Shown here piece after piece: positions 31,170 through 31,238 of a DNA stretch of 63,122 bases (position 1 is its first letter; every line of letters begins with the position of its first letter). Below the pieces are notes generated by a model, which ran no database searches, was not told where the DNA came from, and saw nothing but the letters and a program-made list of their open reading frames with translations. The stretch comes from Candidatus Heimdallarchaeota archaeon (GTDB lineage Archaea > Asgardarchaeota > Heimdallarchaeia > Heimdallarchaeales > Heimdallarchaeaceae): assembly GCA_018238545.1 (NCBI GenBank), contig JABCTC010000021.1, forward strand, positions 1 through 63,122. Reading direction: 5' to 3'. The position numbers and the translations under genes were made by a program.

Positions 31170-31238
31170 TTGTTGAGAATATGATTGGGTTACCCCTGTC
31201 TGATTAATGATGTATCATAAGAGGCTGATTCTCAACAA
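31170..31238 (+). ncRNA. C/D-box methylation guide sRNA
   Basis: 10-bp terminal stem TTGTTGAGAA/TTCTCAACAA; C ATGATTG 31181, 12-nt guide, D' CTGA 31200, C' ATGATGT 31207, 11-nt guide, D CTGA 31225; TATA ~25 nt upstream, T-tract downstream. Confidence 0.85.

What the first reader, a model, noticed from the sequence alone, without database searches (positions are those of the whole stretch)
31170..31238. Stand-alone C/D-box sRNA whose D' guide resembles eukaryotic snR38/SNORD1
Seen: a complete C/D architecture with a 10-bp terminal stem, its own TATA box and a T-tract, in an intergenic gap not covered by any credible ORF. The D' guide GGTTACCCCTGT-CTGA is complementary (11/12, one C-A mismatch) to ACAGGGAUAACU, the eukaryote-type LSU peptidyl-transferase-centre sequence. 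By the +5 rule it would methylate the G equivalent to E. coli 2446. From recall, that is yeast Gm2815, guided by snR38 (human SNORD1). The D guide ATCATAAGAGG approximately matches CCUCUUAAGGU at the H69/H70 junction. Inference: this may be an Asgard archaeal counterpart of a conserved eukaryotic snoRNA, with both guides aimed at ribosomal functional centres.
Basis: partly seen in the sequence, partly recalled or inferred. Interest (0 to 1): 0.78.

Follow-up and report, generated by a model that had tools for sequence, protein, structure and literature searches.

The report
Heimdall archaeal ribosome-methylation guide RNA
This 69-base stretch is a genuine, conserved box C/D guide RNA of a Heimdall-group Asgard archaeon that should direct sugar methylation of one guanosine in the ribosome's catalytic centre, the same nucleotide that yeast snR38 and human SNORD1 target; the same guide occurs across many archaeal phyla and was already catalogued in Ignicoccus, so it is a good new example of a known kind.

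Summary
Window 31170-31238 (+) has a perfect 10-bp terminal stem, C (AUGAUUG), D' (CUGA), C' (AUGAUGU) and D (CUGA) boxes, 12- and 11-nt guides, a TATA-like element upstream and a T6 tract downstream.

The D' guide forms 10 contiguous Watson-Crick pairs with the host's own 23S rRNA (CAGGGGUAAC, LSU 2541-2550). The N+5 rule selects LSU G2544, which is E. coli G2446 and yeast G2815, the snR38 site.

The RNA is conserved in 5 genera of the Heimdallarchaeum family. The D' guide is essentially invariant, while the D guide drifts.

The claimed second target (H69/H70) is no better than chance. The link to eukaryotes is not Asgard-specific. The same guide sits in complete C/D sRNAs of DPANN, Methanococcales, Thermoproteota, Thor- and Hodarchaeota. 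Ignicoccus hospitalis IHOsR414 (Dennis 2015) already carries it.

The Rfam snoR38 model ranks this locus and its paralogue first in the genome, but below threshold (29.6 vs 45 bits). Similarity is confined to guide, boxes and stem.

Side finding: the target abuts a conserved 381-nt bulge-helix-bulge intron in the 23S gene.

Verdict: new member of a known kind, moderate interest.

The parts
31144..31151 (+). TATA-like promoter element TTATATTT, preceded by an A-rich BRE-like tract, about 19-26 nt upstream of the 5' stem
   Evidence: Sequence. An A/T-rich TATA-like element at the same distance is kept in orthologues while the flanks diverge. Function is inferred.
31170..31179 (+). 5' strand of the terminal stem (TTGTTGAGAA)
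   Evidence: Perfect 10-bp complement to 31229-31238. Across 18 homologues, 95% of cells are paired and 4 one-sided changes go to G-U; there are no double compensatory changes.
31181..31187 (+). C box AUGAUUG (degenerate at positions 6-7; the GA core for the K-turn is intact)
   Evidence: Sequence. ATGATT is invariant in the same-genus homologues.
31188..31199 (+). D' guide GGUUACCCCUGU. Guide position 5 is C31195. It pairs with host 23S CAGGGGUAAC (LSU 2541-2550 = G000:C86:16582-16591) and selects LSU G2544 (Ec G2446).
   Evidence: 10 contiguous WC pairs; 17 of 1000 shuffled guides reach this. GTTACCCCTG is invariant in 8 of 9 same-genus homologues (G004 has one C-to-T change) and GTTACCCCT is kept in the other genera of the family, always in the same register.
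31200..31203 (+). D' box CUGA
   Evidence: Sequence; invariant in the genus.
31204..31206 (+). 3-nt loop (UUA) closing the internal K-loop
   Evidence: Sequence.
31207..31213 (+). C' box AUGAUGU
   Evidence: Sequence; ATGA is invariant in homologues.
31214..31224 (+). D guide AUCAUAAGAGG (11 nt); no supported target, probably a drifting or orphan guide
   Evidence: The best rRNA match (LSU 2024-2034) is no better than chance. No tRNA match. It differs among close relatives.
31225..31228 (+). D box CUGA
   Evidence: Sequence.
31229..31238 (+). 3' strand of the terminal stem (TTCTCAACAA)
31247..31252 (+). T6 tract, a likely archaeal transcription terminator
   Evidence: Sequence. T-rich tracts sit at similar distance in orthologues. 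Function is inferred.

Best explanation
The stretch is an independently transcribed archaeal box C/D sRNA.

Inferred mechanism, by analogy with characterised archaeal sRNPs: L7Ae binds the terminal C/D K-turn and the internal C'/D' K-loop, a Nop5 dimer bridges them, and fibrillarin is positioned over the guide-target duplex.

Shown here: the D' guide pairs with 23S rRNA nucleotides CAGGGGUAAC in the central loop of the peptidyl-transferase centre. By the N+5 rule it specifies 2'-O-methylation of LSU G2544. This is E. coli G2446, yeast G2815 and human G4362, the site served in eukaryotes by snR38/SNORD1/snoR38.

In this genome the second (D) guide has no credible target, so the RNA behaves as a single-guide sRNA. 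In sister species the same RNA carries a D guide (G[U/A]UCGAGGUAAG). That guide matches the second guide of Ignicoccus IHOsR414, which is predicted to hit a C 52 nt downstream.

The RNA belongs to a guide lineage or guide type that is widespread in Archaea.
For: - Architecture and spacing.
- Pairing with the host rRNA: 10 contiguous WC pairs with the host's own 23S; only 1.7% of shuffled guides match this.
- Guide-target covariation: lineages with GGGGUAAC rRNA (own genome, G040, G044) have guide GUUACCCC. Methanothermococcus and Woesearchaeota, with GGGGAUAAC, have GUUAUCCCC.
- Conservation: found in 16 of 30 genomes of the family, in 5 genera. The D' guide, boxes and stem are conserved; the D guide varies.
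- Protein machinery: the genome encodes fibrillarin, Nop5 (adjacent genes on C63) and L7Ae.
- Wider distribution: a scan of 185,579 species with C box + guide + D' box gave 48 archaeal against 14 bacterial hits. Most of the archaeal hits are complete C/D sRNAs.
- Published relative: the RNA-seq-derived Ignicoccus sRNA IHOsR414 carries AGTTATCCCCGG in the same register, with predicted targets 23S G2720 and C2772.
- Eukaryotic model: RF00213 ranks this locus first and its paralogue second in the whole genome.
Against: - There is no direct evidence of a transcript or of the methyl group.
- The C box departs from consensus at positions 6-7, giving a U.C opposition where canonical K-turns have G-C.
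- The terminal stem shows no double compensatory changes, only conservation and G-U-compatible changes.
- The guide also matches SSU 119-130 at 11 of 12 positions, with an internal C-A mismatch.
- The target lies next to an intron splice site, so the timing of any methylation relative to splicing is unknown.
Confidence: 0.85

Rival explanations
1. The RNA is a true evolutionary homologue (orthologue) of the eukaryotic LECA snoRNA family snoR38/snR38/SNORD1. It would descend from a guide already present in the archaeal ancestor of eukaryotes.
For: - Same target nucleotide, same register and the same D' position of the guide.
- RF00213 picks exactly this locus and its paralogue as the top two hits in the genome.
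- The guide is present in all major archaeal groups sampled, including Heimdall, Hod and Thor. snoR38 is traced to LECA (PMC3511168). Continuity is therefore plausible.
Against: - The score of 29.6 bits is well below Rfam's 45-bit threshold.
- All aligned identities lie in the boxes, guide and stem, which function dictates.
- Heimdall, Thor, DPANN and Crenarchaeota versions share nothing outside guide and boxes, and the guide sits at D in Desulfurococcales/Ignicoccus but at D' elsewhere.
- PTC sites are known methylation hotspots that can be targeted repeatedly (PMC4644070, PMC7994747).
- Hoeppner and Poole judged comparable cases undecidable.
Confidence: 0.25
2. The main role is as a pre-rRNA chaperone or splicing-order device rather than, or in addition to, methylation. 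The guide binds across the 5' splice site of the 23S intron. It also competes with a perfect local palindrome (GUUACCCC-A-GGGGUAAC). This would keep the PTC strand from misfolding, or from forming the bulge-helix-bulge, until the right moment.
For: - The duplex covers LSU 2541-2550. This includes the BHB central-helix strand GGGG (2543-2546), the 5' bulge UAA and the first nucleotide of the intron helix, so sRNA binding and BHB formation are mutually exclusive.
- The upstream rRNA strand is a perfect 8-nt complement of the target, and the two pair with each other in the MFE fold.
- Guide position 12 is a purine in 17 of 18 homologues. It can pair with the intron's U but not with the mature A. 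The paralogue pairs 12 WC + 1 GU with the unspliced sequence.
- DPANN versions carry a partner guide against the upstream strand of the same palindrome.
Against: - The same guide exists in lineages without this intron (Methanothermococcus, Woesearchaeota, Hodarchaeota).
- Only about 10 bp fit the sRNP channel (cited in PMC8817022), so pairing at position 12 may be irrelevant.
- The purine bias may be phylogenetic inertia.
- Introns and sRNA guides both favour highly conserved rRNA segments, so the coincidence is expected.
Confidence: 0.15
3. The real target of the D' guide is the 16S rRNA segment ACAGGGAUAACC (SSU 119-130), or another RNA, not the 23S PTC.
For: 11 of 12 complementarity to SSU 119-130.
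Against: - There is an internal C-A mismatch at guide position 7, two nucleotides from the modification site.
- The guide's C matches the 23S G (Ec2448) and not the 16S A. In lineages whose 23S has A there, the guide has U. The guide therefore co-varies with the 23S.
- No tRNA match was found.
Confidence: 0.05
4. It is a chance arrangement of short box motifs, or a cis-regulatory hairpin of a neighbouring gene, not an RNA gene.
For: Box motifs are short and the genome is AT-rich. A relaxed C-box/D-box/stem scan is dominated by noise (45 hits against 25 in the control).
Against: - The strict four-box scan gives 1 hit against 0 in the control.
- It is conserved across 5 genera with an invariant guide.
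- The downstream gene neighbourhood changes while the RNA is kept.
Confidence: 0.02

Closest known systems
Ignicoccus hospitalis C/D box sRNA IHOsR414 (Dennis et al. 2015, BMC Genomics 16:632, PMC4644070, Additional file 1)
   Same: It carries the guide AGTTATCCCCGG in the same register relative to its box, with predicted target 23S G2720 in that paper's numbering. Its partner guide GATCGAGGTAAG has predicted target C2772, 52 nt away, which matches the Ec 2446/2498 spacing. That partner guide is identical to the D guide of the same-genus species G015 and nearly identical to those of G001, G022, G019 and G004.
   Different: The guide order is swapped (PTC-G guide at D, not D'). The boxes are GC-rich and degenerate, and the stem is unrelated. 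The guide has U where the Heimdall guide has C, matching A versus G at Ec2448. In the window's own RNA the partner guide has been replaced by AUCAUAAGAGG.
Eukaryotic snoR38 family, Rfam RF00213 (yeast snR38 - Gm2815; human SNORD1A-C/snR38A-C - Gm4362; Arabidopsis snoR38Y - Gm2805)
   Same: Same rRNA nucleotide, same register, and the guide lies upstream of D'. The guide differs at one position (GUUACCCCUGU versus GUUAUCCCUGU), which compensates for the host rRNA. The eukaryotic model ranks this locus first in the genome.
   Different: The score is below the family threshold (29.6 versus 45 bits). About 25 model positions are absent. There is no similarity outside boxes, guide and stem. It is a stand-alone gene with its own promoter rather than an intronic gene. 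Archaeal-type symmetric 12/11-nt spacers and a strong C'/D' pair are present.
Thermoproteus tenax TtesR140 (Dennis et al. 2015, Additional file 1)
   Same: The D' guide GTTATCCCCGGC is against the same rRNA segment. The partner guide GAACTCGGTAAG resembles the TCGAGGTAAG guide.
   Different: The register is shifted by one nucleotide (it would select Ec G2445). D' is AUGA.
Generic archaeal dual-guide box C/D sRNAs (e.g. Rfam RF00095 snoPyro_CD)
   Same: About 60 nt core, four boxes, 11-12-nt guides, and a K-turn plus K-loop. A Hydrothermarchaeota sRNA with the same guide passes RF00095.
   Different: This RNA scores only 11 bits against RF00095. It has a long 10-bp AU-rich terminal stem, a degenerate C box, and only one guide with a recognisable target.

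Membership tests
Archaeal box C/D sRNA | Terminal C (RUGAUGA) and D (CUGA) boxes able to form a K-turn with tandem sheared G.A pairs next to a closing stem | tested here: met
   C is AUGAUUG (GA core intact, positions 6-7 deviate) and D is CUGA. A 3-nt bulge and a 10-bp stem are present.
Archaeal box C/D sRNA | Internal D' and C' boxes separated by a short loop (K-loop) | tested here: met
   CUGA-UUA-AUGAUGU; conserved in the genus.
Archaeal box C/D sRNA | Guide spacers of about 10-12 nt between C and D' and between C' and D | tested here: met
   12 nt and 11 nt.
Archaeal box C/D sRNA | At least one guide with 9-10 bp or more of complementarity to a stable RNA, covering the N+5 position | tested here: met
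   D' guide: 10 contiguous WC pairs to the host's 23S, reached by 17 of 1000 shuffles. D guide: not met (257 of 1000 shuffles do as well).
Archaeal box C/D sRNA | Conservation of boxes and guide in related genomes | tested here: met
   16 of 30 genomes of the family, in 5 genera.
Archaeal box C/D sRNA | L7Ae, Nop5 and fibrillarin encoded in the genome | tested here: met
Archaeal box C/D sRNA | Expressed small RNA, and a 2'-O-methyl group at the predicted site | not testable with these tools
   This needs small-RNA sequencing and RiboMeth-seq of the organism or an enrichment.
Rfam RF00213 snoR38 (snR38/SNORD1) | Covariance-model score at or above the curated gathering threshold (45 bits) | tested here: not met
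   29.6 bits. E is 0.0037 on 201 bases and 0.016 genome-wide.
Rfam RF00213 snoR38 (snR38/SNORD1) | D' guide selecting the LSU G equivalent to yeast G2815 | tested here: met
   The guide and D' box align without gaps to the family consensus. The host target CAG-G* corresponds to the eukaryotic ACAG-G*.
Rfam RF00213 snoR38 (snR38/SNORD1) | Sequence similarity outside boxes and guide that would indicate common descent | tested here: not met
   None is seen in the cmscan alignment, and about 25 consensus positions are deleted.
IHOsR414-type dual guide (Ec G2446 + Ec C2498) | Both guides GUUAYCCCYG and UCGAGGUAAG in one sRNA | tested here: not met
   The window's RNA has only the first guide. Same-genus species G001, G022, G019, G015 and G004 have both. 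No other TCGAGGTAAG guide was seen in the host genome.

The most novel reading that the evidence does not exclude
In Heimdallarchaeaceae the guide acts on unspliced pre-23S rRNA. Its duplex spans the 5' splice site of a conserved bulge-helix-bulge intron in the peptidyl-transferase centre, and it excludes both the BHB central helix and a perfect local palindrome. On this reading the sRNP orders PTC folding, methylation and intron removal. It would be a functional link between guide RNAs and rRNA splicing in the closest archaeal relatives of eukaryotes.
Probability: 0.12. Interest if true: 0.6.

Novelty: new member of a known kind. Interest (0 to 1): 0.38.

Why it matters
The finding adds a well-supported guide RNA to Heimdall-group Asgard archaea, whose small RNAs are essentially undescribed.

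It also shows that the site served by the LECA snoRNA family snoR38 (yeast Gm2815) is served by C/D sRNAs across DPANN, Euryarchaeota, Thermoproteota and Asgard. That equivalence is missing from the 2012 list of archaeal counterparts of LECA snoRNAs (PMC3511168). It fits an origin of this methylation before eukaryotes but does not prove descent of the RNA itself.

The locus gives a clear example of guide-target covariation (rRNA A2448G with guide U-to-C). It also shows duplication of an sRNA with turnover of one guide.

The adjoining conserved 23S intron makes the site a convenient test case for the order of methylation and splicing.

Tried and rejected
- Public sequencing runs: no RNA holder listed; only sediment and cold-seep DNA metagenomes hold the stretch.
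- Rfam at gathering thresholds on the window: only four tRNAs, nothing at the locus.
- D guide against tRNAs (29 aragorn tRNAs): no match.
- D guide against the whole genome: five exact 11-mer complements, against roughly 2-3 expected from base composition by my own estimate. All lie in long open frames and have no Rfam match. Rejected as targets.
- Relaxed genome-wide C/D census: noise-dominated (45 against 25 in the control), so not usable as a count of sRNAs.
- Terminal-stem covariation: uninformative because the stem sequence is too conserved.
- Literature searches for Asgard C/D sRNAs, for an archaeal counterpart of snR38, and for a Heimdallarchaeum 23S intron: no paper states any of these. 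The Heimdallarchaeum genome paper does not mention sRNAs or a 23S intron.
- Bacterial-type promoter/terminator scan: not applicable to archaea.
- Search for another sRNA with the TCGAGGTAAG guide in the host genome: none recognisable.

Full report
**1. What is there**

Window 31170-31238 (+) reads as follows:
- 5' stem TTGTTGAGAA
- a single T
- C box ATGATTG
- D' guide GGTTACCCCTGT
- D' box CTGA
- loop TTA
- C' box ATGATGT
- D guide ATCATAAGAGG
- D box CTGA
- 3' stem TTCTCAACAA

The two stem strands are perfectly complementary over 10 bp, and the MFE fold keeps that stem. The junction has K-turn geometry. The stem ends at A31179-U31229. A three-nucleotide bulge UAU follows, then G31183.A31228 and A31184.G31227.

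The C box deviates from RUGAUGA at positions 6-7. This puts U31186 opposite C31225, where a canonical K-turn has a G-C pair.

A TATA-like TTATATTT lies at 31144-31151 and a T6 tract at 31247-31252. The only ORF touching the RNA is a mechanical 70-aa GTG frame on the other strand.

A strict four-box scan of the whole 3.63-Mb assembly returns this locus as the only hit with a stem of 4 bp or more. The reversed-genome control returns none.

**2. The target**

The assembly holds one 23S gene (C86:14042-17457, +) and one 16S gene (C86:10306-11816, -).

The D' guide forms 10 contiguous Watson-Crick pairs with LSU 2541-2550, CAGGGGUAAC. In the unspliced sequence there is a further G-U pair at guide position 12. 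Only 17 of 1000 shuffled guides reach 10 contiguous pairs covering position 5.

The fifth guide nucleotide upstream of D' (C31195) faces LSU G2544. I aligned the host CCAGGGGUAAC with the bacterial CCGGGGAUAAC and the eukaryotic ACAGGGAUAAC. By that alignment the target is E. coli G2446 and yeast G2815. The E. coli and yeast numbering comes from my own knowledge, using A2451 = yeast A2820.

The register is confirmed independently. cmscan aligns the guide and D' box without gaps to the consensus guide of Rfam RF00213.

The literature supports the eukaryotic side:
- snR38 guides yeast Gm2815; deleting it drops the MethScore from 0.94 to 0.15 (PMC5027498).
- The site equals human Gm4362 (snR38A/B/C) and Arabidopsis Gm2805 (snoR38Y) (PMC8817022 and PMC3511168).

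The host has G at Ec2448, and the guide's C pairs with it.

**3. Conservation and covariation**

blastn and a covariance model built from eight genus-level homologues found the RNA in 16 of 30 genomes of the family (own genome included), in 5 genera. Two of these are the complete genomes of Ca. Heimdallarchaeum aukensis and Ca. H. endolithica. Many of the non-matching genomes are incomplete MAGs.

Within the genus, GTTACCCCTG is invariant in 8 of 9 homologues. G004 has one C-to-T change that still allows a G-U pair. The other genera keep GTTACCCCT in the same register. The stem GTTGAGAA/TTCTCAAC and the box cores are also kept, whereas the D guide differs.

Across 18 sequences the stem is 95% paired. 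It shows four one-sided changes to G-U and no double compensatory change.

Guide and rRNA co-vary across lineages:
- The own genome, G040 and G044 have GGGGUAAC in the 23S and GUUACCCC in the guide.
- Methanothermococcus and a Woesearchaeote have GGGGAUAAC and GUUAUCCCC. In Methanothermococcus the match is 12 of 12.
- A Hodarchaeote has G at Ec2448 with a U in the guide, giving a G-U pair.

This covariation also argues for the 23S and against the 16S look-alike site ACAGGGAUAACC (SSU 119-130, 11 of 12).

**4. The second guide**

The proposed H69/H70 target is CUUCUUAAGGU in this organism. It gives 8 WC pairs, 2 GU pairs and 1 mismatch. 257 of 1000 shuffled guides do as well.

Other candidate targets also failed:
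- No tRNA matches.
- Five exact complements elsewhere in the genome lie in open reading frames and are about the number expected by chance.

Close relatives carry TATCATAAGAGG, TATCTTAAAAGG or TTATCTTTTTGG at this position. This looks like drift.

The other branch of the genus carries G(T/A)TCGAGGTA(A/T)G. That guide pairs 8 bp with UACCUCGA in the PTC, with position 5 on the C equivalent to Ec C2498 (my numbering). It has an equally long match elsewhere in the LSU.

**5. A paralogue**

The host genome has a second copy at C43:80520-80595. It keeps the same stem and D' guide (TAGTTACCCCTGG). Its boxes are degenerate: D' CGGA, C' TTGAAGA and D ATGA.

Its D guide GAATTGCATAAT pairs 10 bp with LSU 861-870. 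This type is the one found in the other genera of the family. With D = AUGA, the C-box U6 gets a U-A partner.

**6. How widespread the guide is, and what is already described**

I scanned one genome for each of 185,579 species with the pattern C box + guide + D' box. The scan gave 62 hits, 48 archaeal and 14 bacterial. The archaeal hits come from:
- Heimdall-, Thor- and Hodarchaeota
- Woese- and Nanoarchaeota
- Methanothermococcus
- MAGs labelled Methanosarcinales
- Nitrososphaera and Nitrosomirales
- Pyrolobus and Desulfurococcales
- Marsarchaeota
- Hydrothermarchaeota

Most of the archaeal hits are complete C/D sRNAs.

Within the phylum, an 89-genome family has the pattern in 52 genomes. In the 15 genomes I fetched, 13 carry complete sRNAs with the same guide (17 such sRNAs in all), twice as tandem pairs with different D guides. 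Its sRNAs match those in records named Thorarchaeota. The largest family (135 genomes) shows only chance-like hits.

Apart from guide and boxes, these RNAs share nothing with the Heimdall RNA.

Dennis et al. 2015 list relevant RNA-seq-derived sRNAs in Additional file 1:
- Ignicoccus hospitalis IHOsR414 carries GATCGAGGTAAG and AGTTATCCCCGG. Its predicted targets are 23S G2720 and C2772, 52 nt apart, the same spacing as Ec 2446 and 2498.
- T. tenax TtesR140 carries a guide against the same segment, shifted by one nucleotide.

sRNA-guided methylation of this G was therefore already predicted in archaea. The two-guide combination seen in sister species of the host also exists in Crenarchaeota, with the D and D' positions swapped.

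Hoeppner and Poole (2012) place RF00213 in LECA. They list only sR12/snR70 and a few other archaeal counterparts, not snR38, and they judged such cases undecidable between homology and convergence.

**7. Relation to snoR38**

Rfam's snoR38 model is the best Rfam match at the locus (29.6 bits). Run over the whole genome, it ranks this RNA first (E 0.016) and the paralogue second (27.6 bits, E 0.044). Both are below the 45-bit gathering threshold.

The aligned identities are confined to stem pairing, box cores and the guide. I therefore file the RNA as working like snR38 at the same nucleotide, but not as a demonstrable member of that family.

**8. Machinery and context**

Fibrillarin and Nop5 are adjacent genes on C63. 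An L7Ae gene is on C94, and a second L7Ae-family gene is on C86.

The flanking genes are a PLP-dependent enzyme (29988-31076, -) and a weakly matching metallo-beta-lactamase-fold protein (31356-32423, +). The PLP-enzyme gene is the conserved neighbour across the genus. The downstream gene is adjacent only in the two closest genomes.

TATA-like elements and T-tracts are kept at similar distances in orthologues.

**9. The intron beside the target**

Relative to the archaeal LSU model, the 23S gene carries an insertion of about 390 nt immediately after GGGGUAAC.

The sequence fits a canonical bulge-helix-bulge:
- central helix GGGG (2543-2546) with CCCU (2924-2927)
- bulges UAA and GAA
- outer intron helix CUGCGCUU/AAGCGCAG

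Cleavage after the second bulge nucleotide gives a 381-nt intron (LSU 2549-2929). The mature junction is GGGGUA|ACAGAG, which matches the archaeal consensus.

G040 and Ca. H. aukensis have introns of 344 and 389 nt at the same place. Their outer helix reads CUACACUU/AAGUGUAG in G040 and CUACAC/GUGUAG in Ca. H. aukensis. That is two compensatory pair changes relative to the host.

The host intron folds more stably than shuffles (z = -3.3). It has no ORF longer than 74 aa.

The guide duplex covers the central-helix strand, the 5' bulge and the first base of the outer helix. sRNA binding and BHB formation therefore cannot coexist.

The target is also the 3' half of a perfect palindrome, GUUACCCC-A-GGGGUAAC.

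Whether this reflects functional coupling or only a shared preference for conserved rRNA is open. Lineages without this intron have the same guide.

**10. Verdict**

- Observation: confirmed.
- Interpretation: partly supported. The RNA is real and its target is the snR38 site. The second target is not supported, and the eukaryote link is neither Asgard-specific nor demonstrable homology.
- Class: new member of a known kind.
- Points of moderate interest: the pan-archaeal distribution of a LECA-site guide, the guide-rRNA covariation, the duplication with guide turnover, and the neighbouring conserved PTC intron.

Other notes of this scan report several further C/D sRNAs in this genome and comparable Asgard sRNAs in other genomes.

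Noticed in passing
L001:4049-4429 (= G000:C86:16590-16970; LSU 2549-2929): A 381-nt bulge-helix-bulge intron sits in the 23S rRNA gene inside the peptidyl-transferase centre (between Ec A2450 and A2451). It has no ORF longer than 74 aa. It is conserved at the same site in G040 (344 nt) and Ca. Heimdallarchaeum aukensis (389 nt), with compensatory changes in the outer helix. 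The Heimdallarchaeum genome paper does not mention it.
   Followed up: partly
L041:1501-1576 (= G000:C43:80520-80595, +): Paralogue of the sRNA with the same stem and D' guide. Its boxes are degenerate (D' CGGA, C' UUGAAGA, D AUGA). Its D guide GAATTGCATAAT pairs 10 bp with LSU 861-870. This is the type present in the other genera of the family.
   Followed up: partly
L001:4033-4050 (LSU 2533-2550): The host 23S has G at Ec2448, where most archaea, bacteria and eukaryotes have A. This creates a perfect palindrome GUUACCCC-A-GGGGUAAC around the sRNA target. G at this position is also seen in G040, G044 and a Hodarchaeote.
   Followed up: partly
G000:C86:10306-11816 (-) and 14042-17457 (+): The single 16S and 23S rRNA genes lie about 2.2 kb apart on opposite strands (divergent), so they are not one operon.
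   Followed up: no
G000:C94, minus strand (one search hit 77969-78017 in reverse-complement numbering): Another clear C/D sRNA: TTTGTGGC-TGTGATT-TAACCGTCCCAGA-CTGA-CAA-ATGATGT-TCCTACGACGAA-ATGA-GCCACAAA. It has a homologue in G002. Its targets were not examined.
   Followed up: no
L160 and L161 (G352:C45:21796-22137; G355:C38:961-1303): In a Thor-like family, two C/D sRNAs with the same D' guide (GTTACCCCTG) lie in tandem about 127 nt apart with different D guides. This parallels the duplication and guide turnover seen in the Heimdall family.
   Followed up: no
L146:~1575-1620 (Hodarchaeota CSMAG_10 LSU): This 23S departs from the consensus after GAGAGCUCACAU (about 30 nt downstream of the sRNA target). 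That suggests a different intron or insertion site in that lineage.
   Followed up: no
L045, L067, L077, L082, L087, L093, L101: In DPANN and 'Methanosarcinales' MAG sRNAs, the partner D guide (..GGAGTAACTG) is complementary to the rRNA strand immediately upstream of the D' target (AGUUACUCC). The two guides thus cover both arms of the local palindrome.
   Followed up: partly
window 32435-32926 (-): An Spt5 (NGN + KOW) gene lies two genes downstream of the sRNA. Four tRNA genes lie in the window at 23552-23633, 34383-34456, 47927-47998 and 48044-48115.
   Followed up: no
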